Below the pieces are notes generated by a model. The model was not told where the DNA came from. It worked only from the letters and a program-made list of their open reading frames with translations, and made no database searches. Below, piece by piece: positions 26,509 to 64,000 of a stretch of 64,000 bases of DNA. The stretch lies in NCBI GenBank assembly GCA_002269645.1, contig NIVC01000025.1:544417-608416 (forward strand). Direction: 5' to 3'. The DNA comes from Macrostomum lignano (Eukaryota). Numbering within the stretch: the first letter of the stretch is position 1; the number at the start of each line of letters is the position of its first letter. The position numbers and the translations under genes are program-made.

Positions 26509-46747
<20,239 letters not shown>

Positions 46748-51375: not shown

Positions 51376-52666
51376 AGTAGTATAGGAAAAGTAGGTTTGA
51401 GCGCAACCCATTTTGAAAAATCACAAAAAACAGATAAAAATCGACTAAAAACAGGTGAAAATTGTCTGAAAACAGTGATTTTAGTGATTTTTCAAAAGTT
51501 TCGAAAAATTGCTTTTTGCGCGATTTCGTGAGTAAAACCACAAGAAATTTTTGATTCGTGGGTTAAAATAACCTATTTTCAGGTTTCATCATTTCAAAAC
51601 TAGCATCAAATTTAATAATAGTCTTTTCTCCCATTGCATAACGCCCTTCAATAAGCCAATCTTACTAGCTTTGCTTTTAACGATCAGTCAGCTACCATCT
51701 ATGCATAAAAATTGTCCACTCGAGGCATACAATGCTTTTACAAAAGTCAATAATTTGCTCCTGCACATTCGCTTTGTCCCGAGGCTTTGAAATGGCTTTA
51801 ATGCTGTTCTAGATTTGTACTTAAAGATAATAGAAGACATTCAAGAACATGGAGCGCTAATTTAAATTTTTCGTGGCATGCATACTCGACTACTAGAGCA
51901 CTAACCGCAGCACTCAACATTTCTATTGGCTGCCAAAATTTCTGCCAAAACCAAAATTTTTGCCAAAATTTCTGCCAAAAAGTGTTTGGTTTTGGCATCC
52001 AATAGGAGTGGCTCGTGCAAATCTTTTGTGTTCACCCTCTATCTAGCTGTAAAAAAAGACATGAAGTGGGCCACGCAAGTTACAAACGAACAATGCTCTC
52101 GCGACCCTACCTACGGACGATTTCACTAACCCTTTTCTAAATTATGTATCTTAAAAATGGAACAAATAGCAGGAGAAATTCTCCTCAAAGCAATTTTTAT
52201 ATTGTGACTCAGCTTTAACGTCGTGCGAAACCCACACTGAGTGAAGCGTATGGTCAAATAGGCTCTCGCAGGAACTCACCAAACTAACTATACATAACCG
52301 CAGCACTGAACATTTCTATTGGCTGCCAAAATTTCTGCCAAATCTTGCGACCAAAATTTCTGCCAAAAAAGTTTTGGTTTTGGCAACCAATAGGAGCGTC
52401 TCATGCTAGTCTATTGTGTTCACCCCCTTTCTAAAAAGACACGAAGCGCACCACGTTACAGAATCATGCAAGATAAGAGACTATACAATAGGCGAACCAC
52501 TAGAGTATAATGGAGAAGGTCTTTTTTGATACTATAAGCACCATATCCAACTTAGTAAAAGACAAATCTACCTTTCATAGAACAGGCAGGTGTAGCAGCA
52601 GGCTCTATTGCTACAGCAGTTAACGCAGCCTAAGTCTGTAGATTACTTAAATTTATTTTTATAAAA

Positions 52667-54025
52667 ATGGCCTTCAGTAAACCATTATTTCTAGGTTCTG
52701 CATTGGATATTCAGTCAGCTATAACAAAACTACCACCCATCTTCGCCACTGGAAAATATCCTGGCGAATTTCATATTCCAGGGTATTCTTTCACTGGCCC
52801 AGGTACAAATTTAGACAAGAGACTCAATCCAATTACAGACTGGCCTCGGTATGATAGTCTACCAATTAATCCAATTGATTGGACTGCTTACTATCATGAC
52901 AAAAGCTATAGAGATGCTGAAAAGACGTCTTCAACTCCAGAGGAAGCCCTAGCAAAGAAGCATATTGCTGATGAAAAAATGATAGCTGATTTAGATGCTA
53001 TTCCAACCAGCGACTTGTCGGTAAAGGAGAGACTCATTAGAAATCTAGTAAAGCGTATTATCAATGCTAAAGTTCGGTTTGGATTAGGAATTCATACTCA
53101 CAACCCCAACAATTGTATAGACTGTCTAACAATTTATGGTAAGGGTCTTAGCTATGAAGATGCAGTAAAATTGCATAGGGAATACAGAAAGCCAAGAGTA
53201 TTTAGAAAAATGATTCACTATGCAAAAGACACAATTTGGCATGCAGATATCATTATCCTACCGCCCGAAAGAGGTTACAAATATGCTCTCACTATCATAG
53301 ATGGTTTTACACGTTACGCCTGGGCAGTTCCTTTGAAAACAAAGACGGGAGCGGAAGTTGCAGAAGCTTTCCAAAAAGTATTTAAGGAATCAGGAAGACG
53401 ATCAGAGAGACTTTGTGTAGATGAAGGCAAGGAGTTTTATAATCAGCATATGTACAAGCTATACTCGTTTTCAAAAGACAACATTAGAAAGAAGGATGAA
53501 AGGGGTGAATATATTAACAAGATGTTTTCAATTTATGGCGAGTCCAAGAATGCAATGATTGAGAGGTTCAATCGTACTCTCACAAATAAACTCTGGTTTG
53601 AATTTGATCTACAGGGTAATCAGAAGTGGCTCCACACATTGCCAGCTATTGTTGAAAAATACAACAACACAATCCATTCTGAGATTCTGATAACTCCTTC
53701 AGAAGCATCTAAACATCCTGAGCGAGTACCAAAGCCAACTTTCGAGTATTCAAATGAGAAACCAAACTTCAAAGTAGGTGACAAAGTTCATATCTATAGA
53801 TATAAGGAGCACTTTGAAAAGGGTCGAAGAGGATATTGGAAAATTTCAGAAGTGTTTAGGATAAAGAAAATAGTTTACTCCAATCCCATAACCTACATTA
53901 TTGAGGATGAGAATGGAGAAGAAATCATTGGATCATTTTACAAATCCCAGCTTCTACCAGCAAATTTTTCAACTAAAAATGAGCGCCTATCGAACAAACT
54001 GCAAACGGGCGAAAGGTCAGATTGA
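52667..54025 (+). CDS. Fusion ORF: parvovirus VP1u-like phospholipase A2 (PLA2X) plus retroviral-type DDE integrase, 452 aa
   Basis: PGYSFTGPG (Ca loop) and D..AYYHDKSY (catalytic HD); integrase WHAD, LCVDEGKEF, MIERFNRTL; C-terminal FKVGDKV...PITY...GEEIIGSFY. Confidence 0.88.
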   Translation: MAFSKPLFLGSALDIQSAITKLPPIFATGKYPGEFHIPGYSFTGPGTNLDKRLNPITDWPRYDSLPINPIDWTAYYHDKSYRDAEKTSSTPEEALAKKHIADEKMIADLDAIPTSDLSVKERLIRNLVKRIINAKVRFGLGIHTHNPNNCIDCLTIYGKGLSYEDAVKLHREYRKPRVFRKMIHYAKDTIWHADIIILPPERGYKYALTIIDGFTRYAWAVPLKTKTGAEVAEAFQKVFKESGRRSERLCVDEGKEFYNQHMYKLYSFSKDNIRKKDERGEYINKMFSIYGESKNAMIERFNRTLTNKLWFEFDLQGNQKWLHTLPAIVEKYNNTIHSEILITPSEASKHPERVPKPTFEYSNEKPNFKVGDKVHIYRYKEHFEKGRRGYWKISEVFRIKKIVYSNPITYIIEDENGEEIIGSFYKSQLLPANFSTKNERLSNKLQTGERSD

Positions 54026-54400
54026 AACGTCTGATTCACAACTACTAGCTGATAAAGAGGGTGAAGGAATTGGTGATATGATCAGTGGTGTCACAAACTT
54101 TTTATCAAATCATGGAAGTAAAATTGTGAGTGGAGCTGATGCAATAGGTAAAACAGCTACCACAGCGAAGAACATATTCGATGCGAAGAAATCATACAGT
54201 GACATGTCTAAAGCAGGTGAGGAACTGGAATATATTAAAAAGAAACGTAGAGAAAAGAAGCAAAGAAAAGAATGGAAGAAGAGCAACAGATAGCTTCTCA
54301 ATCAAATAAGGCTATTCAAGATATTGTTAAAAAGGCTCTAGGAACAGCAGAACAGTCTCAAGTGTCTTTGAGACAAGGCAATGGTTTGAAGAAATTCTGA
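53979..54400 (+). CDS. Putative virion core/membrane-active protein; one frameshift at about 54270
   Basis: ATG 53979. EGEG followed by amphipathic IGDMISGVTNFLSNHG and a Lys-rich stretch. The second frame MEEEQQIASQ...QGNGLKKF* joins by a single-base correction. Confidence 0.55.
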
Positions 54401-54408
54401 CCTTAAAA

Positions 54409-54861
54409 ATGAGCGAGAAAAACACTGAAGCAAGACTCAATCGATATGTTCGAGAGGGAAAACCAAGATATGTTACTGTAAATAAGCAAAAGCAATATCT
54501 TTCTAAAGAGAAGATTCGAGAATTGCAAGAGAAACAGAAAGAACATGAAGGTGGAATAATTCCTCTATTAGGCTTACTACCAGCAATATTGGGTGGTATC
54601 GGAGCAGCCTCCGGAGTTGGTACAATGATTGCAAAAAGTGTTAATACAGCCAACAATGCTAAGCATAATAAGACAATAGAAAGCATTGAACGACAAAAAC
54701 TAGAAGAGTTGAAAAAGGCTCAAGGGAGTGGAGTGTTAGTTGATGCGGCTAAAAGAGTCGAACAAGTACCCAGCGAAGCAGTCAAGTGGCTGCTAAAGAC
54801 TTTTAAAGTTGAAAAGGAGAAACAGGGTAATGGGATAATTCTTAGACCTCACGAAGCTTAG
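54409..54861 (+). CDS. Putative virion core protein with an adenovirus pX-like hydrophobic motif, 150 aa
   Basis: HEGG-IIPLLGLLPAILGGIGAASGVG resembles the adenovirus pX segment MRGG-ILPLLIPLIAAAIGA; further QGSG and QGNG motifs. Confidence 0.6.
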   Translation: MSEKNTEARLNRYVREGKPRYVTVNKQKQYLSKEKIRELQEKQKEHEGGIIPLLGLLPAILGGIGAASGVGTMIAKSVNTANNAKHNKTIESIERQKLEELKKAQGSGVLVDAAKRVEQVPSEAVKWLLKTFKVEKEKQGNGIILRPHEA

Positions 54862-54881
54862 TTGAAATTTCTCGTATAAAA

Positions 54882-56247
54882 ATGGAGAACAAAAAGGATA
54901 TACTGAACCTATATGAGGACAAAACTTTTAGCTTTTTCAAAAAGAAAGAAGACTATATTAAGATTTCTCCAACACCAGGTAGCACTAATAATCTCAATGT
55001 TGCAGGAGGTCAAATAGTTCATGAAGTCAATTCAACAGAGTCATACATTCTCATGTCAGAGGCATTCGGTTGTATAAAATACTCAATAACACAAAGAGAT
55101 AAACACCGACTTGAATACGAACATTACTCTAGAACATAATTGGCCTATGAGACTTTTCTCTCAACTCATAGTTGACATTGGAGGAACAAAGAAAGTCTAT
55201 AATGATCCTGGAGAGTATGACACAATCTTAAAGTCCGTAATGTACTCAAAATTGATGAATGAAGTTGGAGAAGCATACGGATGGATTCCAGACACTGGAG
55301 ATGCTGGGACTGTTTCTGATATAGCTCTAGCAAACAACGCAGATGCTGAAGCTGTGAGAACTGCAGCAATCGCTATGAAAAATAGACTCAATAAGAAGGA
55401 TTCGAATACTGGATACATTAGGAGGCTTGAAAATTATAACAATGTCACTAATGCTCCAAACAGAGGTGGAACAATCAAACTATCATTAACACCCCTCATT
55501 GGGTTCCTTGATTGGCAGAAGATTAGCAAAGGAATTAAATATAAATTCACATGGACAAGAAAGACTAACGATGCTGAAATTTTCTTTGGAGCTGCCGGGA
55601 CGGAAGCTAAGTTAACTATTAATAGCTTTGAGATTTGGATCCCTGCTATTAGTTTGTCACCCAGTGCTGAAGCAGCTTTTCTAAAATCACTCAACAAGGA
55701 CATTACAGTATCATTTCCAGAGAGGGTAACGGTTCCGCCACAACTCATTCAAGGAAGTCCATATACATGGAACATAGCCAACATCTCCAATATGCCACTT
55801 GCAATCTTTGTAGCTTTCAAATATGACGTAAACAACCCATCATATATAGTTAATGATCACAAGTATGTGTCTTACAAAACTGGAGCAAATGCAGTGAAAA
55901 TAACCCAGCTTCAAGTCAGATTAAATCAGGTGATGTATCCGAATGATTATGTTGAAATTGATCCAGTAGCTCAAGACATTCACAGAGCATATGAAATGTA
56001 CGAGGACATCTGCAGCCGTTTCGGTGTAACTCCACCATTTAATAAACAAGACTTTCTAACAATCTATCCAATATTCTGCTTTGATCTAACAGCTCAGGAT
56101 GAGTTTCTTGTCAAGAGTGGAGTGAATATTCAATTATTTATCAAGAAGTCAACTAATGTTGAGCTGACTGCTTTTGCACTAATTCTTGAACAAACAAAGA
56201 ATGTAATAAAAGTTACCAGTGAATATCAAATGACCCGCGTCGAATAA
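54882..56247 (+). CDS. Major capsid protein (double jelly-roll, Polinton PY/hexon-like), about 454 aa after correcting a +1 frameshift at about 55102
   Basis: ORFs 54882..55139 and 55111..56247 join on removing one A (gataaacacc). Motifs ITLEHNW...LFSQ, LIGFL, FEIWIP, LAIFVAF, LQVRLNQVMYP, YPIFCFDLT; size and position fit. Fold assigned by motif recall, not computed. Confidence 0.75.
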
Positions 56248-56268
56248 GGTCATTTTTTCTTTTTTTAA

Positions 56269-57040
56269 ATGCCCAAAGTAAAATTTCGGCATGATCCTAT
56301 TTTCCCTAATCCTCTTTTATGTTGTATTATCGGCGCTACAAATACGGGTAAAACATATTTACTATTCCATATTCTTACAAGTCCTGAAAAACTAGTTGAC
56401 TTTAATGAGTTAGTTTTATATGTTCCCAGAGCATCTCAAATGGATCCAGAGTATCAGTTTCTAAAATGGCTTTGAAAATGGTCTCCCACCTTCTCTTATC
56501 AACTCACTCTATCATGTCTACCAGGTGAGTGAGGATGCATCTCCTGAAGATATTAGACATATTTGTCGAGAGGCAGCCAACCCTGGTCGAGTGCAAAGCA
56601 CATCAGAAAATTCAGAAGTAATAGAGAAAATTCCTGTCACTCTTTCCCATACTCCAAATGAAGAAATTTTTCATAATGGACTAAAGACATGTGTGATATT
56701 GGACGATGTTTTGGGAGAGGCTAATCAAACATTTCAGGAAAGTCTGTTTCAGAGAGGCAGGCATGGAAACTGTTGTGGTTTTTATCTAGCTCAAAATTTT
56801 ACCAAACTAGATCGCAATACTGTCAGGGAGAATACGACATGTTACATAATCTTTAAACAAAAAGATACAAACTTAAATCACATTGCTAGAAATATAGAAA
56901 CGAATTATGAACCCGCTATATTCAAGGCTAAATGTAGAGAGGCTTGGAAAAAGAAGTATGGCTATATCTATATAAATACAAGAGCTGATGAGGATGAGCA
57001 AGATTTGTATAAGGATGTTCTAACTAAAATCCCATTGTAA
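56269..57040 (+). CDS. FtsK/A32-like genome-packaging ATPase, about 256 aa after correcting a +1 frameshift at about 56465
   Basis: Walker A GATNTGKT, Walker B CVILDD, FQRGRH, LAQNF...RENT; frames join as cta aat ggc ttt gaa. Confidence 0.85.
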
Positions 57041-57042
57041 AA

Positions 57043-57772
57043 ATGACTAATGAATATATAAGAGAACTCATTAATTTAGCAAAGCAGCGAGAAATGTACA
57101 AATCCAGAAATGATGCTCAACGCTATTTGAAAATTGGAGAAGAGAGTTTATATGCAAGAGTGGCTCCATTAGCTCAAAAACCTGTCACAGAAAAGCTCGA
57201 TGAATTTATTGATGTCAATGCCAACCTTGTTGATAAACTTCAGAATCAAAAAGTTCCAGTTCCGCAATCAAGTACACCAAAAGGCCGATTTGAACCCCTA
57301 GAAGTATTTGACAAAATAATTGAAGAAATTGGAAAGATTCAATAACTCAAAGACCAGCGCCTAGTATACGGATTCAAAAAACTGATGCTGGATATATATT
57401 TGGATCATCTGTAATAGATGTTGAATTCCATGAACAAGGTCGAGACATCATTGTCAACGAATTTCGAATGCCATTTTCTGAAGATCTTGAAGAGTTGTTC
57501 AAAATGCCTAAAGTAACTGAAAATGGTGAAGAGCTGAAGCAATTCAAGATGCAAACATTGCAGGATTATGTTAACATCATTGAACATTGTAAAAATCCAG
57601 CGGCCAAATCAAGTGGGAATTATAAGCAAGCAGTAAGGATATTGAAAGATAATCCACCAGGATATCGAGTAAAACCGGGATCTGGACTCAGTGAAAGAGT
57701 GTTAACTTTATTAGCCGCCAAGCAGAAGGACATAATAATGTTGATAAAGAGCTAGCAGAATTACTTGCTTAA
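57043..57772 (+). CDS. Conserved Polinton hypothetical protein with two -1 frameshifts (about 57327 and 57726)
   Basis: 57043..57345 joins 57468..57755 through an open intervening frame (NWKDSITQRPAPSIRIQK...). Corrected C-terminus reads GSGLSERVLTLLAAKQ-GHNNVDKELAELLA*. Confidence 0.55.
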
Positions 57773-57774
57773 AA

Positions 57775-58562
57775 ATGGAAAAAGAAATAGAAAAAGTCAA
57801 CATCCTCTTGAGTAAAAAGTTTCAACGCACATTTGACTTCTTTTCAATTAAAAACCCATTTCGACAAACTCTAGGCACTCCTATAAATTTGTATGAAGAT
57901 CGAGAATACGAAGCTGGTATAAAAAAGTTTGCAGTCTTTGATGCTATTAACAATATTGAAGGAGGCAATAATGAGTTGCGATACTCGAGGGATAGTGGTA
58001 GAACATGGAAAAAATAAAGATTCAAGCGGGTCTTGGGAAGTTAAAAGTCTGTCAAGCGAGATTCAAAGATTGCTAACAGCTGCAAATGATTGGAAAGAGG
58101 GGGCTATTGTTTTCAGTGCAAGCCTAGACACGCGTAGAGTTGAGTTACGGTTAGCCACAGATTATCAAGTTGATTTCAGGGATGCACATTCCAATAACTT
58201 TAGAAGACTGTTGGGATTCAATTCGGAAGTGTATTTGAAACCATTTGAGAGAGCTCCAAATCCAGCTCGGATAGACGGAGCTAGAAGTGCGATCATGGTT
58301 CGTTGTCTAAATACAAAGGGGGTTTATCACTGATCCAGCTAATGGAAATCATTTAATTGATAAGCAAATACTTCTTTCAATTCCATCGTTCTCTGTCCCA
58401 ATGGGAAGTAAAATTATTCAAGAGCCCGCAAATCCTGTGTACCTACCACTAACTACAAACATGTTGAGCACATTCGACTTTGTCATCGAAGATGAGTCTG
58501 GTGTTCTATACGACTTTGATGGCGAGGAAATATTTATAAATCTTCACATACGACAAATATGA
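57775..58562 (+). CDS. Minor capsid (penton-like, Polinton PX) protein, about 262 aa, three frameshifts (about 58012, 58030, 58320)
   Basis: Reconstruction: PINL...YEAGIKKF...INNIEGGNNELRY...WKKIKIQAGSWEVKSL...LLGF...IMVRC...GSKIIQEPANPVYLPL...DESGVLYDFDGEEIFINLHIRQI*. Confidence 0.7.
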
Positions 58563-58571
58563 GTGTTAAAA

Positions 58572-59003
58572 ATGAGCGAAGCTGAGACATGGAATGCATT
58601 TAAACAAAAGTTTGGGACTGACACTACGACTAATATTGATCTGATAAATTGGGCAAAATATCTCAAGTTAAAACCATTTCGCTATGCCATGAGAGATGAA
58701 ATTGTTGATTTACCACAGTATGGTTACTTTATGACAAATATTCACACTTCGAAAGAACGGGGTATACATCATTCAGCTATATTTTCAGCTCCTGATAAGG
58801 TTTATTTTTTTGATTCCTATGCACTACCGCCCACACTGGAAATTATGGAAAAGTTTAATCACACAAAGAATAGAATATGTGGAGACATGGAAGAACAAAT
58901 TCAAACTTTTGATAAGAAATATTGTGGTCAAATGTCGCTGTACTTTTTACACCGAATCGATAAAGGAGATAGCTATAACGAAATTTTGCAGCAATTAAAA
59001 TGA
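58572..59003 (+). CDS. Adenain/Ulp1-like maturation cysteine protease
   Basis: N.....RGIHHSA (His), YFFDSYALPP (Asp), IQTFDKKYCGQMSLYFL (Gln, Cys). Confidence 0.85.
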   Translation: MSEAETWNAFKQKFGTDTTTNIDLINWAKYLKLKPFRYAMRDEIVDLPQYGYFMTNIHTSKERGIHHSAIFSAPDKVYFFDSYALPPTLEIMEKFNHTKNRICGDMEEQIQTFDKKYCGQMSLYFLHRIDKGDSYNEILQQLK

Positions 59004-60408
59004 GTTACAAGAATACTGCCAATCAATTTGGTTACTCGTCAAATTCAAATGATATAGCACCTGGAATAACAATAGCGTTAGCTGATGATCGATACATCAA
59101 TGAAAATGAAGGATATAAGAGAGAGGAAATAGATAATTTATTGTTAGCAAAGAGAAATGTTTCAGACTCTTATTCAAAGGAAGATAGTGACGCAATGAAT
59201 ATCACCATGCTACAATTAATTGACGATGCTCATGGGCGCGTAAACAATGTCTACACAAAAACCGAAACTGACACTAAGATGTATTCTAAAACTGAGATTG
59301 ACACTAAGATGTATTCTAAAACTGAGATTGACACTAAGATGTATTCTAAAACTGAGATTGACACTTTGTTAGCAGAATGGCAAGGTACTGCGGGAGGTAC
59401 AGAGAGTTCGAAATTAGTCAATATTCTTTCATTACTGACTTCAAACGCTTCCCATTCTGACATGAAAGTGACCGCTTCTCATAACTCTTCAGCAGCATAT
59501 CATGTTGCAGATTCAAACCCAGCTTCAGATTGGAGCAGTGCAGATGACTCAGACAAGTGGATACGATTTCAATTTTTGAAAAGAGCTAGGAAAGTTGTAG
59601 AGATAAAGTTGGAAGGAGAGGTGTGGCCTGGTTGGTCTGTTAGTGTGAGCCTAAATGGAACAAACTGGACACCTGTTGAACAAAGTGCACCCATTGAACT
59701 ACGAAGGGCAATGCACATCTTAGGAAAAAAATACCCAATCCCTCATATTATTTCCATTATTCTCTTAATTTTTCTGGTTCCGTAAAGCTTACAAAAGTTG
59801 AATTACTTGAGAGACAAACAGTGGTTAATGATTTAGTGTGGCCTATAGATAGACTTCAAGCTGTACCAAAGCTATACGTAGACAATGCACTTGAATCAGT
59901 GGAGCTGCGACTAAGGCGGGGACTAGGTTTCAAATCTTATACAGGATATATTCCCTCACTAGCAACACGTCAAAACTATAGAGAAAGGGGTTTCAATGTA
60001 GCGTCATCAGGAGCATTTGAAACGTCAGATAATTGGGGTTATATAGTATCTAATTCAGAATGGGCATCGAGGAATGAACCCAATTCTTACATTGAAGTAC
60101 AACTTCCCGAGTCTATTCAAATTTGGAAATTCGGATTGAAAGGAACCAAAGCAGTAGGTAGTGAAATTATAAAAAATCAACCAAAAAGTTTTATTCTGAA
60201 AGGGAGCAATAACAAGAGAGACTTTAGGAATATTTTTTCTACCGAAAACGCTGGTTTAGTTCCTGGAGTCATGAAATATTTTGAAGTAGCTTCCACCGAA
60301 AAATTCTCTGTTTATAGAGTGCATATTAATTCAGCCACTGAAGGATCAACCGTTCTTATTGTTTCAGGCTTTCAACTTTATCCGATTTTAGACATAATCG
60401 CCACATAA
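59000..60408 (+). CDS. Putative fibre/receptor-binding protein: Y.K.E.D stalk repeats plus two F5/8 type C (discoidin)-like domains, about 469 aa with one -1 frameshift at about 59698
   Basis: YSKTEIDTKM repeats (30-bp unit, about 59255-59365). The alternative frame from about 59702 (KGNAHLRKKIPNPSYYFHYSLNFSGSVKLTKVELLERQTV) runs without a stop into ORF 59821..60408. Confidence 0.6.
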
Positions 60409-60410
60409 AA

Positions 60411-61151
60411 ATGAATGAAAAAAATGAACACATCTATCCTGTGGTTGAGCTGCATGAAGCAGATTTGAGGGAGCGGGACTATTTCAATCAGAGAAAGGGT
60501 GAAATCAAAGGCAGTATTGAATGCATTACTAAAGATCTTACAATTTATAGCAAAAAGGTAAAAAAGTACAAACGGCAAAGTAGCAGGATAAATTGGATCA
60601 ACATTGTGACAGGAAATGTAAGTCTCTTGGCTGCTACAGGAATTGGCATAGCAACATCGATACTGACATTGAATCCCTTAGTTATTGGAGTAGTAATCGG
60701 GGCAATGAGTGGTTTTGAAGCTGTAAAATCCACGTCGTTGTTTGCAACTGTGAAAATTCATTGCCAAAAGCAGAAGGCAAAATACATTGTTCTCAGAGAT
60801 CTGGCAAATCAATATAGAGAGAGATTGTATATTTACTCCCAAAAAGCAGTTGATGATTATAGATTAACTCTTGAAGAGGTTCAAGCAGCTGCTGCAATTT
60901 ATTCAGAATACAGAGAAAAAAGAGATCAATTGTTAGACGCCTGTGTTGCGCCTGAAGAAGTTAACCATTCGGAAGTCGTTGATAAAATCCTCAAAGAGAG
61001 TAGACTTGGTCATTCAGCGAAGGAAAAAATTAAAAAGGAATTACTAGAAAAAGATCTGAGAGAAAAATTGGGTCTAGCTGATAAGCCAAAAGAGTACTCG
61101 GCAACACTCAATCTTCAATCAAATGCTCCAAGTGCACCTCCCTACAATTAA
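60411..61151 (+). CDS. Coiled-coil membrane protein with a hydrophobic hairpin and C-terminal PSAPPY, 246 aa
   Basis: Intact ORF; hydrophobic segments IVTGNVSLLAATGIGIATSIL and LVIGVVIGAMSGF; ends SNAPSAPPYN. Confidence 0.75.
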   Translation: MNEKNEHIYPVVELHEADLRERDYFNQRKGEIKGSIECITKDLTIYSKKVKKYKRQSSRINWINIVTGNVSLLAATGIGIATSILTLNPLVIGVVIGAMSGFEAVKSTSLFATVKIHCQKQKAKYIVLRDLANQYRERLYIYSQKAVDDYRLTLEEVQAAAAIYSEYREKRDQLLDACVAPEEVNHSEVVDKILKESRLGHSAKEKIKKELLEKDLREKLGLADKPKEYSATLNLQSNAPSAPPYN

Positions 61152-61176
61152 TATTGTATAATTTTTTTTCTAGAAA

Positions 61177-61482
61177 ATGGCTGCAATAAAAGTTCTCCTA
61201 AATGCATACCAAGATGAAATAAAGCGCATTGATAGAGAAATACAAATAAATAACTTTAGGGAGGTGCGTACACATTGTGGAATAATAGAACCGGATTATG
61301 GATATATTGATAAATTAAGTGATCGCAAATGTTTTCTTGAAACTGCTATTGTTTTTGCAGAAGCATTTATTGAAGATGAAATCGACAAGTTAGTTAAAAA
61401 AATAAAAGAGATCAGGAAGTATGTTGAGTTTAATGATCAGCGCAAGAAACTTCTTAAGCAATTGAATTGTTTGGTTTTTTAA
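61177..61482 (+). CDS. Hypothetical protein, 101 aa
   Basis: Intact ORF with an A-rich start, tail-to-tail with pPolB; no recognisable motif. Confidence 0.5.
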   Translation: MAAIKVLLNAYQDEIKRIDREIQINNFREVRTHCGIIEPDYGYIDKLSDRKCFLETAIVFAEAFIEDEIDKLVKKIKEIRKYVEFNDQRKKLLKQLNCLVF

Positions 61483-61484
61483 AC

Positions 61485-64000
61485 TTATTTGAATCCATGA
61501 GGATGTGTTATAATTCCATTGGATTCAATGTATCTTTTGTCATCGAAAGGACTAATAGCCTTCTTATTTTGTTCTATTAAAGTCATGTTATGCTTGTCTG
61601 ATCTAAGGCTATACACTTTCCTATAGACTGGTTCGTTATAATCAAGTAGTATATTTCTATAGTCATCATATTGTACATGATGCTTCACTGTTGACTTTGA
61701 GATTCCCTTTAATTTTTTCTCTTCCTTCCCTTCCTTTTGAGTGCTGACATAAACTGTTTTAAATGAATATGCTTTCGATCTTAGAGCGGTTACTTCTGTC
61801 ATTATGCAATCATATTTTGCCAATTCATCCTTGAATGTTCCCAGCTTTCCACAATTATTCATATCATGTAAATCAATCGGAAAATTTTTAGTATACAGCG
61901 ACAAATCGAAATGCTCCTTCATCTGAGCAATGTCTTTATAAATATTTTCTGTCTTTATATGAAGAATGAATGAGTCGGTGTCAGAGGTAACAATCTCAAC
62001 ATTATCCCCCCATTTGGACTTGAAAACTTTGTAAAATGTTTCATACATATGCAATTTCGAGAGATCCAGAATTGCTTGTCCAGCGTATGTTGGCTTTGTT
62101 CCAAGAGGGATATTCTTAGGTCGCTGGTGAATGCAAATTAGATTTTCATTGAAGATTTTGAAGTCTATGAAATCTGGCTTGGATATTATCTTAGATATCT
62201 CATCCTCACTTGTCAGCAACTCAAATCGCTTTCTCTTTTTAACATCCTCCATTGTCTTGCCAAAGATGCTTACATTAAGCATTTTGAACTGATTGTCTTC
62301 GAACTCAATTTTTGCTTCTTTTGCCTTCTTTCTTTCTATCGTATTAAACTCGATATACTCCTTTAACCATGGCTTTTCATTGAATGAAATCGTCCTATGT
62401 ACTTTTGTCACTTTCAAGCCCATCTCTTCATAGAATCGCAATAGCTTATGATGTACGATATATTTTGTTTTATTTTTTAAATTAAGGATCAATTTAGGAA
62501 CTTTTCCAATCTTTTTCATTTCGACTTCTAGACATCCTTTCTGATATTCACTCAATTCACTTTCTGACACAGTTGTACTTTCAGGTGCTAATGGGAAGGC
62601 ATACGTTTTCTTTTTTGATTCTTTTGTATATTCAAGATCACATTCAACAAGACAGCCCCGTCCTTCAGGAGGATTTTTATAATAGTTGGAATCAGCTTCC
62701 CATTTAAAGTCAGAAAAAGGAAGGGGTTCCAACATACTATAACCATAGAGATTTGTACAATCAACGTAAAGTAAGTAGGAAGTTGGTTTTTCTAAATCAT
62801 AGCCTGGAAGATAAGGATTATTTGCCTTTACATATCGTGACCCTAGAACTCCGCTAAATCCACCTCTTATTCCACTATCAATCATATGAATCATATCGAT
62901 ATCCGCCAGCAAGTCTAACTCAACTTTACTTTTCTTCAACCCAGCATTCCAACTCAATCCTGGTGCTGAGAAGCATCTGGCTGGATCAATCTCAAAGTGT
63001 TTCAGGAAGAATGTTCTATAGCGTTCGAATACATCTGCTAATAATAGAACGTCAACCTTAAGATACAGCATCATATAATCCTCCAAATTCTTACAATTAA
63101 AAGTTTTCCACATTTGTTTTGCAAAATCATATTCATCTGAAGAAATGTCTTCACCTTTCAACCTCGAGTAAAACTCTTTCAATGGTGGTAACTCAGTTTC
63201 TGCTAATCTTCCAAAGCTTCTGATATACTCATATGGGAATACACCCTTGCGCTTAACATATTGAAAATCGCTGTCGTTTTTAAAGTATTTCTTTGTTATG
63301 ATGAAGTCTTCATCCTTCAGGGACTTTGCGCAGATATCCAGCGAGGAAGCCAAGAACCTGTATGAATCTAGGAACCTCAGTACTACTTTGTTACATCCAA
63401 ACTCGAGAGAAATGTACTCTTCAGAAGTTTTAGATAGTGGAGGAAATAATTTATCCTCCATGGTCTCTTTGCTCTTTAAGTGTGTCACTAAGAAGTGAAA
63501 GTCATAGTGGGATCCATTCTGGAAGTAGATTGGGATTACTCGCTTCTTACTCTCGAGAGCATTGCAGGATTTACAGGCAGCCCCTCTATATTTGCCACTA
63601 TAGTGACAATGTTCTCTTACCTTACCTAGCTTAAGTGTAAAGTCATTTTTACAATTCGCACATTTTTCAGCCCTGTAAAACTCTTTCCATTGTTGCTTTG
63701 TGATCTTATATTTACTTATATTATTGCTCTTGTTCAGACATTTTTTGCACCAAGATTCTATAGTAACTTTACTGTCAATTTCCTTCACATGCACCTTCAT
63801 ATCTGGAACCATATCAAACTCCTTCTCGCATATGTAGCATTGTTTAGCCTTACAGAAAGAAGCCTCCTCTTGCGCTGTCAAATTATGATTAATATGCTTA
63901 GGCTCCTTCAGACCATTCTTAATTTGTTGATAAATTTCAACCATTCTATCAACATATTTTTCCTTGGCATCTGTGCCACAATATCCTTCATACTTCGATT
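61485..64000 (-). CDS. polB: Protein-primed family B DNA polymerase with an endonuclease VII-like Zn-finger region; N-terminus beyond the window
   Basis: The frame is open to the window edge (SKYEGYCGTDAKEKYVDR precedes Met 63944). Motifs CYIC, CANC...EHCHYSGKYRGAACKSCN, NGSHYDFHF, FLDSYRFL, KGVFPYEY, DVLLLADVFE, YVDCTNLYG, KMLNVSIFGK, SDTDS. Confidence 0.95.
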   Translation of the reverse strand, partial: SKYEGYCGTDAKEKYVDRMVEIYQQIKNGLKEPKHINHNLTAQEEASFCKAKQCYICEKEFDMVPDMKVHVKEIDSKVTIESWCKKCLNKSNNISKYKITKQQWKEFYRAEKCANCKNDFTLKLGKVREHCHYSGKYRGAACKSCNALESKKRVIPIYFQNGSHYDFHFLVTHLKSKETMEDKLFPPLSKTSEEYISLEFGCNKVVLRFLDSYRFLASSLDICAKSLKDEDFIITKKYFKNDSDFQYVKRKGVFPYEYIRSFGRLAETELPPLKEFYSRLKGEDISSDEYDFAKQMWKTFNCKNLEDYMMLYLKVDVLLLADVFERYRTFFLKHFEIDPARCFSAPGLSWNAGLKKSKVELDLLADIDMIHMIDSGIRGGFSGVLGSRYVKANNPYLPGYDLEKPTSYLLYVDCTNLYGYSMLEPLPFSDFKWEADSNYYKNPPEGRGCLVECDLEYTKESKKKTYAFPLAPESTTVSESELSEYQKGCLEVEMKKIGKVPKLILNLKNKTKYIVHHKLLRFYEEMGLKVTKVHRTISFNEKPWLKEYIEFNTIERKKAKEAKIEFEDNQFKMLNVSIFGKTMEDVKKRKRFELLTSEDEISKIISKPDFIDFKIFNENLICIHQRPKNIPLGTKPTYAGQAILDLSKLHMYETFYKVFKSKWGDNVEIVTSDTDSFILHIKTENIYKDIAQMKEHFDLSLYTKNFPIDLHDMNNCGKLGTFKDELAKYDCIMTEVTALRSKAYSFKTVYVSTQKEGKEEKKLKGISKSTVKHHVQYDDYRNILLDYNEPVYRKVYSLRSDKHNMTLIEQNKKAISPFDDKRYIESNGIITHPHGFK

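What the first reader, a model, noticed from the sequence alone, without database searches (positions are those of the whole stretch)
60411..61151. Element-encoded membrane protein with candidate ESCRT late domains (C-terminal PSAPPY, N-terminal YPxxxL)
Seen: the protein ends QSNAPSAPPYN*, starts MNEKNEHIYPVVEL, and has coiled coils flanking a hydrophobic hairpin. Established: P(T/S)AP binds TSG101, PPxY binds NEDD4-family WW domains and YPx(n)L binds ALIX; overlapping PTAPPEY occurs in Ebola VP40. The motif here is PPY rather than a canonical PPxY. Inference: this may be a budding/egress or envelope-acquisition factor, implying that a nominally naked-capsid Polinton exits via ESCRT or extracellular vesicles. 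The ORF is intact.
Basis: inference. Interest (0 to 1): 0.7.

Follow-up and report, generated by a model that had tools for sequence, protein, structure and literature searches.

The report
Polinton membrane protein with ESCRT motifs
A virus-like element in a eukaryote's genome carries an intact membrane protein whose family keeps short signals of the kind viruses use to borrow the cell's budding machinery, which hints that such elements may leave cells inside vesicles, though no binding or release has been shown.

Summary
Confirmed: an intact 246-aa ORF in a Polinton/adintovirus. The protein is a long helical hairpin with a 42-residue uncharged tip flanked by basic residues, so both tails are predicted cytosolic. 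It belongs to a widespread unnamed family, weakly SLATT-like, whose nearest predicted folds are invertebrate iridovirus proteins.

Motif results across 22 clusters below 40% identity:
- An ALIX-type YPx(1|3)L/I lies in the first 30 residues of 19 of 22 (shuffle maximum 5).
- The query clade uses YPx3L, which argues against a plain YxxΦ sorting signal.
- P(S/T)AP occurs in 6 of 22, at three different positions. None of 11 permuted tetrapeptides occurs.
- The NEDD4 part fails: the query reads APPY, not PPxY.
- The nearest sister lineage lacks both motifs.

Sister copies are under purifying selection (14 of 19 differences synonymous). Best reading (0.55): an ESCRT-recruiting membrane adaptor for non-lytic or vesicle-wrapped exit, working like orbivirus NS3 without detectable kinship. 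Binding, expression and use in egress are untested. Rivals are a SLATT-type pore, or ESCRT sorting of the protein itself. My four literature searches found no link between Polintons or SLATT proteins and ESCRT.

The parts
60411..61151 (+). Intact 246-aa two-helix membrane-hairpin protein, member of a widespread unnamed family found in Polintons
60432..60452 (+). IYPVVEL: ALIX-type YPx3L motif (residues 8-14). Y9, P10 and L14 are invariant in the close clade.
60456..60590 (+). First helical arm (residues 16-60), ending in a basic cluster before the membrane segment
60591..60716 (+). Uncharged 42-residue hairpin tip (61-102) with turn near N88-P89; predicted two-pass or re-entrant membrane segment
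60717..61067 (+). Return helix and C-terminal helices (103-219), including the best-conserved core stretch around E156
61128..61145 (+). PSAP (TSG101-type motif) followed by x-Tyr in a low-confidence coil tail; not a canonical PPxY
52667..54025 (+). Element context: PLA2-like domain and rve integrase in one ORF
   Evidence: PF08398 1.3e-8, PF00665 7.1e-10
54882..56247 (+). Element context: double-jelly-roll major capsid gene, split over two frames in this copy
   Evidence: (PF21738 1.7e-13)
56269..57040 (+). Element context: packaging ATPase-like gene (Walker A seen by eye), split over two frames
   Evidence: assignment by inspection
57775..59003 (+). Element context: penton-like gene in three pieces, then a cysteine-protease-like ORF (58572-59003)
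   Evidence: assignment by inspection and recall, no library hit
59000..60408 (+). Element context: fibre-like gene with 10-aa repeats and an F5/8 type C domain, split over two frames, directly upstream of the finding
61485..63998 (-). Element context: family B DNA polymerase-like ORF with endonuclease VII-like insert; runs off the window
   Evidence: polymerase assignment by inspection

Best explanation
The protein is a Polinton-encoded, SLATT-like membrane hairpin with both tails in the cytosol. It acts as an ESCRT adaptor: the N-terminal YPx(1|3)L recruits ALIX (ancestral, family-wide), and some lineages add a P(S/T)AP for TSG101 wherever a flexible stretch allows. During a productive cycle it marks a membrane (endosome, plasma membrane, or nuclear envelope/ER), bridges capsids or nucleoprotein to it through its helical body, and lets ESCRT-III pinch off a vesicle. 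The element thus leaves non-lytically, as bluetongue NS3 lets a naked virus do. Shown: intact gene, purifying selection, motif conservation and recurrence. Predicted: fold and topology. Inferred: binding to ALIX and TSG101. Inferred more weakly: capsid contact and use in egress.
For: (1) YPx(1|3)[LI] in the first 30 residues of 19 of 22 cluster representatives, ΦYP in 20 of 22; shuffle means 0.2-0.7, maximum 5. The motif persists although the tail around it varies in length. (2) Not a search artefact: 12 of 16 distant hits whose scored stretch began at query residue 12 or later carry ΦYP, and no distant hit was scored past residue 227, so PSAP was never scored. (3) Background: of 47 other ORFs (9,396 aa) from the element and loci L002, L003 and L006, 0 have the N-terminal YPx(1|3)L and 0 have P(S/T)AP. 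(4) Spacing switches between n=1 (17 of 22 representatives) and n=3 (7 of 7 in the query clade, where 6 of 7 fail YxxΦ). ALIX motifs are given as n=1-3 in PMC4880917 (introduction). (5) P(S/T)AP in 6 of 22 clusters, at the N-tail, an inter-helix linker and the C-tail; 0 of 5,000 shuffles reached the observed 5 representatives in each of four schemes; 0 of 11 permuted tetrapeptides after masking. (6) All 22 representatives have a 37-64-residue nearly uncharged stretch preceded by 3-7 K/R, and no hydrophobic leader. (7) 14 of 19 listed differences among sister copies are synonymous (21% expected, P=1.5e-6), and sister contigs stay aligned through the motif to nt 61144 and then diverge. (8) Precedent: NS3 has two TM segments, an N-terminal coiled coil, and PSAP plus PPRY, and drives non-lytic exit of a naked virus (PMC7409164 passages).
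Against: No binding, localisation, expression or particle data. The nearest sister lineage (P0007, support 100/100; also the partial P0009-P0011) lacks the YP motif, and P0007 lacks PSAP, so the core can exist without them. 16 of 22 clusters have no P(S/T)AP. The tree is star-like and does not exclude one origin for same-position PSAPs. Residues 1-20 are modelled with pLDDT 74-92, so the YP segment may pack on the helical body and be conserved for structure. In most clades YPxL is also a YxxΦ adaptor signal (recalled; one search shows only a reference title on AP-2 and ALIX in EIAV). The query's own IYPVVEL departs from its clade's YPTK(E/D)L. Shuffle tests ignore shared ancestry. The capsid, ATPase, penton-like and fibre-like genes of this copy are split. 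Polinton context was seen directly for only two loci, the window and L002. Two contigs (X14 at 61135, X2 at 61077) diverge before the end of the motif, and I could not read them.
Confidence: 0.55

Rival explanations
1. The motifs do bind ESCRT, but the cargo is the protein itself or a host membrane protein. They sort it into multivesicular bodies or exosomes, limit a toxic pore, or sequester ESCRT; virions leave by another route.
For: All motif statistics fit equally well. No capsid-binding evidence exists. The gene behaves as a swappable module, with different neighbours upstream and downstream in sister elements (loose ends at 60388/60408 and 61144).
Against: The gene lies in the same-strand run of virion genes, directly after the fibre-like gene, with the same TA(2-4)ATG start context, which suits a late function. 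Two different ESCRT motifs on one viral protein is the usual budding pattern (PMC8402826 passages).
Confidence: 0.2
2. A SLATT-type pore or viroporin for lysis, endosomal escape or abortive infection. The YP segment is structural or an ordinary YxxΦ trafficking signal, and PSAP is a secondary trafficking tag.
For: Weak SLATT likeness: Pfam SLATT_1 E=0.027 for the query and 0.0031 for P0160, both below cut-off; eight SLATT-labelled giant-virus proteins among the 50 Foldseek rows (E 2.7e-3 to 0.18); Atlas SLATT_4 0.77. Published proposals for PLV SLATT proteins are endosomal escape (PMC12220804) and lytic egress or abortive infection (10.64898/2026.10.13.758929). A motif-less sister lineage exists.
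Against: This does not explain the n=1 to n=3 switch that breaks YxxΦ in 6 of 7 query-clade members, nor PSAP at three positions with no permuted controls. The element already has a PLA2-like domain that could serve entry. The two roles are not exclusive: NS3 is reported to have both.
Confidence: 0.2
3. A structural virion or internal-membrane protein shared with iridoviruses; the motifs are chance or have another partner.
For: The top Foldseek matches are invertebrate iridovirus proteins (E 7.7e-5 to 3.6e-4, TM about 0.5).
Against: Chance is excluded for both motifs at family level. The iridovirus matches are generic helical hairpins at 16-18% identity, and I could not see their sequences.
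Confidence: 0.05

Closest known systems
Orbivirus NS3/NS3A (bluetongue virus; Pfam Orbi_NS3 PF01616)
   Same: About 230-250 aa, helical N-terminal part, two hydrophobic segments, basic motifs before the first segment, PSAP, encoded by a nominally naked-capsid virus (PMC7409164 passages). The Atlas lists Orbi_NS3 among the nearest named clusters at 0.76, a lead only.
   Different: No sequence kinship: no PF01616 hit at E<=1. NS3 has PSAP plus PPRY and a 21-aa glycosylated luminal loop; this family has YPx(1|3)L as the constant motif, optional PSAP, almost never PPxY (2 of 147 proteins), and a tight turn. DNA element, not dsRNA virus.
[quoted passage not shown]
   Same: Helix, two-TM hairpin, helix layout; weak Pfam, Foldseek and Atlas likeness. 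A gene labelled SLATT appears on adintovirus maps in Supplementary Fig S2 of PMC8502044.
   Different: Below every curated cut-off; no SMODS, SLOG or reverse-transcriptase partner in the element; carries eukaryotic ESCRT-type motifs that the SLATT passages I read do not mention. Whether the published SLATT label is this family was not testable.
Uncharacterised invertebrate iridovirus proteins (S6DF61, A0A5B8RH66, A0A068QKD3)
   Same: Best predicted-structure matches, similar length (214-276 aa). A vertebrate iridovirus uses ALIX, TSG101 and NEDD4 to bud (PMC4880917 abstract).
   Different: 16-18% identity; function unknown; their motifs could not be inspected; not shown to be the TFV late-domain proteins.
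Adintovirus membrane-active accessory genes PLA2X, GasderminX, Cupiennin; nematode Maverick fusogen MFUS-1
   Same: Membrane-related genes of animal Polintons; MFUS-1 was taken to imply enveloped Maverick particles (10.1101/2022.07.12.499685 passages).
   Different: Those are proposed entry or lysis factors, with no budding or ESCRT mention in either paper. No fusogen was seen in the part of this element inside the window, so a quasi-envelope fits better than a true envelope.

Membership tests
Viral late-domain (ESCRT-recruiting) protein | YPx(n)L motif conserved beyond background | tested here: met
   19 of 22 clusters; shuffle maximum 5; 0 of 47 background ORFs. Absent in 3 of 22, including the nearest sister lineage.
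Viral late-domain (ESCRT-recruiting) protein | P(S/T)AP motif beyond background | tested here: met
   6 of 22 clusters; 0 of 11 permuted controls; 6 of 7 full-length members of the query clade
Viral late-domain (ESCRT-recruiting) protein | PPxY/LPxY motif for NEDD4 WW domains | tested here: not met
   None in the query; PPPY in only P0169 and P0170 of 147 full-length proteins
Viral late-domain (ESCRT-recruiting) protein | Motifs in cytosolic, accessible tails | tested here: inconclusive
   Charge and hydropathy predict both tails cytosolic; the C-tail is low-confidence coil, but the N-tail has pLDDT 74-92 and may be packed
Viral late-domain (ESCRT-recruiting) protein | Direct binding to ALIX/TSG101 and motif-dependent release | not testable with these tools
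   No host ALIX or TSG101 sequence was available to the complex tool; needs bench work
Orbivirus NS3 | Sequence homology (PF01616) | tested here: not met
   No hit at E<=1 for the query; not among the 25 of 50 families shown for 37 members
Orbivirus NS3 | Two TM segments with a glycosylated luminal loop; PSAP plus PPRY | tested here: not met
   Tight turn at 86-89; no PPxY
SLATT superfamily | Match to a curated SLATT profile | tested here: inconclusive
   SLATT_1 14.9 bits (query) and 18 bits (P0160) against a cut-off of 26.3; 2 of 37 members at E<=0.1
SLATT superfamily | Two-TM hairpin followed by cytoplasmic helices; structural likeness | tested here: inconclusive
   Layout fits; Foldseek rows to SLATT-labelled proteins have TM 0.37-0.40 and E 2.7e-3 to 0.18. 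The defining paper was not held, so the features are partly recalled.
SLATT superfamily | Oligomeric pore | not testable with these tools
   Needs conductance or permeability assays
Polinton/adintovirus gene | Lies in an element with pPolB, rve integrase, DJR capsid, ATPase and protease | tested here: met
   Window and L002 for the distant member P0129 (assignments there by inspection). Terminal inverted repeats not testable because the element runs off the window.

The most novel reading that the evidence does not exclude
Animal Polintons/adintoviruses widely encode a dedicated ESCRT-recruiting egress protein. It is a SLATT-like two-TM hairpin, possibly shared with iridoviruses, that kept an ALIX motif across the family and repeatedly gained TSG101 motifs. 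These 'naked' elements would then leave cells, or cross the nuclear envelope, inside host membrane as quasi-enveloped particles. This would help explain why free virions are rarely seen and how the elements move between cells and into germ lines.
Probability: 0.4. Interest if true: 0.8.

Novelty: new variant of a known kind. Interest (0 to 1): 0.62.

Why it matters
How Polintons/Mavericks leave a cell is open. The papers I read discuss entry factors, a nematode fusogen and putative pores, but not budding. A conserved ALIX/TSG101-type signature on a common accessory gene gives a cheap, direct test on one intact protein. It says where to look for particles (vesicle fractions, not only naked-capsid densities). 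It offers a different function for viral SLATT-like proteins than the pore role now assumed. It would also be a case of convergence between a DNA element and orbivirus NS3.

Tried and rejected
- Own genome: none held.
- Four-copy complex of residues 12-180: no verdict, score 0.00, alignment not used; no evidence either way.
- PDB Foldseek: 0 matches at E<=1e-3. VIA-wide: best Z 10.8 to BAR domains and other coiled coils at 2-14% identity, under the level that means anything for helical bundles, so no BAR claim is made.
- Locus searches: the close alignment gave one hit in viral contigs, L001, which falls in an unrelated-looking element and matches no listed ORF of this family; rejected as chance. 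It gave none in metagenome contigs. P0049 gave none in viral contigs; P0149 none in phages.
- Dropped before counting: P0023 (578 aa, repeat-like) and P0161 (326 aa); 28 of 175 further proteins as partial.
- Expression: no RNA holder listed; the 'RNA?' labels are guesses and all four laid runs are contigs.
- Tree: could not show independent PSAP origins.
- Earlier scan findings: none by sequence, words or place.
- GasderminX and Cupiennin identity: considered, not supported by any hit; their sequences were not visible (slide supplements unreadable, archive cut), so not excluded.
- PMC11296320 and PMC8097293 held none of my search terms.
- The original SLATT paper was not held.

Full report
Observation. 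YPVVEL is residues 9-14, PSAP is 240-243, and there is no PPxY or LPxY. Residues 61-102 are uncharged. AlphaFold2 with a 37-sequence alignment gave mean pLDDT 84: helices 16-85 and 89-149 form a long hairpin with the uncharged stretch at its tip, then helices 154-176, 186-196 and 201-219, and a coil C-tail.

Setting. From about 52 kb the GC falls to about 0.36. The region encodes a PLA2-like plus rve integrase ORF, a double-jelly-roll capsid protein and an F5/8-domain fibre-like ORF, and by inspection ATPase-, penton-, protease- and polymerase-like ORFs. This is a Polinton/adintovirus. The capsid, ATPase, penton-like and fibre-like genes are split over frames in this copy; the finding is not. 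No whole genome is held. The stretch 58500-62500 is held at half its words or more by 20 of 24 listed runs, in 8 studies, all of one coded organism; none is on record as RNA, so expression is untested. Four runs laid on 59800-61700 show sister copies. Of 19 listed differences inside the ORF, 14 are synonymous against 21% expected (P=1.5e-6). The tool withheld 15 further rows, which I could not count. Contigs in three runs stay aligned to nt 61144, within the final Tyr codon, then run on in unlike sequence; others change neighbours just upstream of the start. The gene thus looks like a module whose homology ends at the motif. Two contigs diverge earlier (61135, 61077) and I could not read them.

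Family. Five homologues at 64-69% identity and 33 representatives down to 23% were aligned. The profile reached a large further branch (P0049, E 6.6e-13) with 111 relatives including a Nematostella vectensis protein. One member, P0129, sits in a contig with polymerase-, integrase-, capsid-, ATPase- and penton-like ORFs (L002, by inspection). Polinton context was seen directly for only these two loci; L006 shares several neighbours with L002. The Atlas places the query and P0149 with unnamed clusters from molluscs, cnidarians, Nucleocytoviricota and Preplasmiviricota (0.91-0.95), with the caution that the query's recognition value was low. Of 177 proteins, 2 were dropped as spurious or fused and 28 as partial; 147 full-length ones fell into 22 clusters at 40% identity.

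N-terminal motif. ΦYP lies in the first 30 residues of 20 of 22 representatives, YPx(1|3)[LI] in 19 and YPx[LI] in 17. Shuffles gave means of 0.1-0.7 and at most 5. In the query clade the form is YPx3L in 7 of 7, and 6 of 7 fail YxxΦ. That favours an ALIX-type reading over a plain adaptor sorting signal; the YxxΦ definition is recalled.

PSAP and PPxY. P(S/T)AP occurs in 6 of 22 clusters: next to the YP motif (P0013/P0019, P0034, P0156), in a linker (P0029), and at the C-end (P0027, query clade). No shuffle of 5,000 reached the observed 5 representatives in any of four schemes, three of them local. None of the 11 permuted tetrapeptides occurs once PSAP is masked. Canonical PPxY occurs in 2 of 147 proteins. 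In the query clade the tail is PSAP-x-Y with x = P, A or S; APPY is the change that impaired HTLV-1 PPPY (PMC8402826, passage).

Controls. 12 of 16 distant hits not scored over the motif still carry it. 47 other ORFs (both strands, so including shadow frames) have 0 N-terminal YPx(1|3)L and 0 PSAP. All 22 representatives have a long nearly uncharged stretch behind a basic cluster and no leader peptide. Against: P0007, the query's strongly supported sister, has neither motif, P0009-P0011 lack the YP, and P0025 lacks it too. The tree of 26 rows is star-like and does not exclude single origins of same-position PSAPs. Shuffles ignore shared ancestry. The N-tail is modelled fairly confidently and may be packed.

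Fold. Four viral matches reached E<=1e-3, three named as invertebrate iridovirus proteins (TM about 0.5, 16-18% identity), followed by SLATT-labelled giant-virus proteins at weaker scores. Pfam SLATT_1 is below cut-off. Solved structures gave only generic helical bundles. I call it SLATT-like and do not file it as SLATT.

Mechanism. Most likely (0.55) a membrane adaptor that brings ALIX, and in some lineages TSG101, to a membrane where particles bud into a vesicle. About 0.75 of my weight is on real ESCRT binding; of that, egress is the likelier use, with sorting of the protein itself as the alternative (0.2). A pore with incidental motifs gets 0.2. Pore and adaptor need not exclude each other: NS3 is described with both (PMC7409164, passages). 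No fusogen was seen in the part of the element inside the window, so a quasi-envelope is the better expectation than a true envelope.

What is known. PMC8502044 (passages; text of Supplementary Fig S2; slide files unreadable and the archive cut, which may bear on the gene's published name) lists PLA2X, GasderminX, Cupiennin and a SLATT label, with 0 occurrences of 'late domain', 'egress' or 'envelope'. PMC12220804 and 10.64898/2026.10.13.758929 propose pore roles for PLV SLATT proteins (passages). 10.64898/2026.06.19.733378, PMC11071296 and 10.64898/2026.04.29.721553 added nothing on egress (passages). 10.1101/2022.07.12.499685 proposes enveloped nematode Mavericks from a fusogen, with 0 occurrences of budding or ESCRT (passages). 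PMC4880917 (abstract and introduction) shows ESCRT use by a frog iridovirus.

Searches for a prior link: polinton plus ESCRT gave 2 general reviews with one ESCRT mention each, seen as listings only; SLATT plus ESCRT gave 0; the 25 and 15 rows listed combined no Polinton term with a late-domain term. Subscription journals are largely outside the library and bioRxiv supplements were closed.

Verdict. A real, selected gene with two of three proposed motifs supported at family level. It works most plausibly like orbivirus NS3, is not a member of that family, and is a new variant of a known kind. Interest 0.62.

Noticed in passing
window 52660-61180, gene starts: 9 of 11 gene starts of the element are preceded by TA(2-4) directly before ATG, against 16 of 230 plus-strand ATGs. 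T-runs lie between genes at 56260 and 61162. This recalls the poxvirus late TAAATG start (recalled) or may be a plain A-rich Kozak context.
   Followed up: partly
window 52667-54025: A PLA2-like domain and the rve integrase lie in one open frame. PMC8502044 describes PLA2X as a gene class of its own, so this may be a fusion or a feature of this copy.
   Followed up: no
window 54882-60408: Capsid, ATPase, penton-like and fibre-like genes are each split over frames, while the finding, the integrase and the polymerase part in the window are open. Decay or assembly error was not distinguished.
   Followed up: no
window 54409-54861: 150-aa ORF with a Gly/Ala-rich amphipathic stretch, resembling from recall the small membrane-active core proteins of adintoviruses; no library hit.
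   Followed up: no
window 51900-52460: A direct repeat about 390 nt apart at the left edge of the element (D2, D4, D12), possibly subterminal.
   Followed up: no
window 61177-61482: The 101-aa ORF after the finding is replaced by other sequence in sister elements (loose ends at 61144; one contig skips 61202-61412).
   Followed up: partly
window 61485-63998: The polymerase-like ORF carries an endonuclease VII-like insert (PF02945, 3.5e-8).
   Followed up: no
L002 8998-9984: The gene just upstream of family member P0129 has an LYPM in its first 30 residues and a long hydrophobic C-end; it is the only background ORF with an N-terminal ΦYP.
   Followed up: no
proteins P0169, P0170: Two of 17 members of the P0028 cluster have a canonical PPPY at the C-end, a possible third late-domain type in the family.
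   Followed up: partly
window 39576-42119: Host-side sequence: a glycosidase-like exon region (recalled resemblance) interrupted by long trinucleotide and 30-nt tandem repeats.
   Followed up: no
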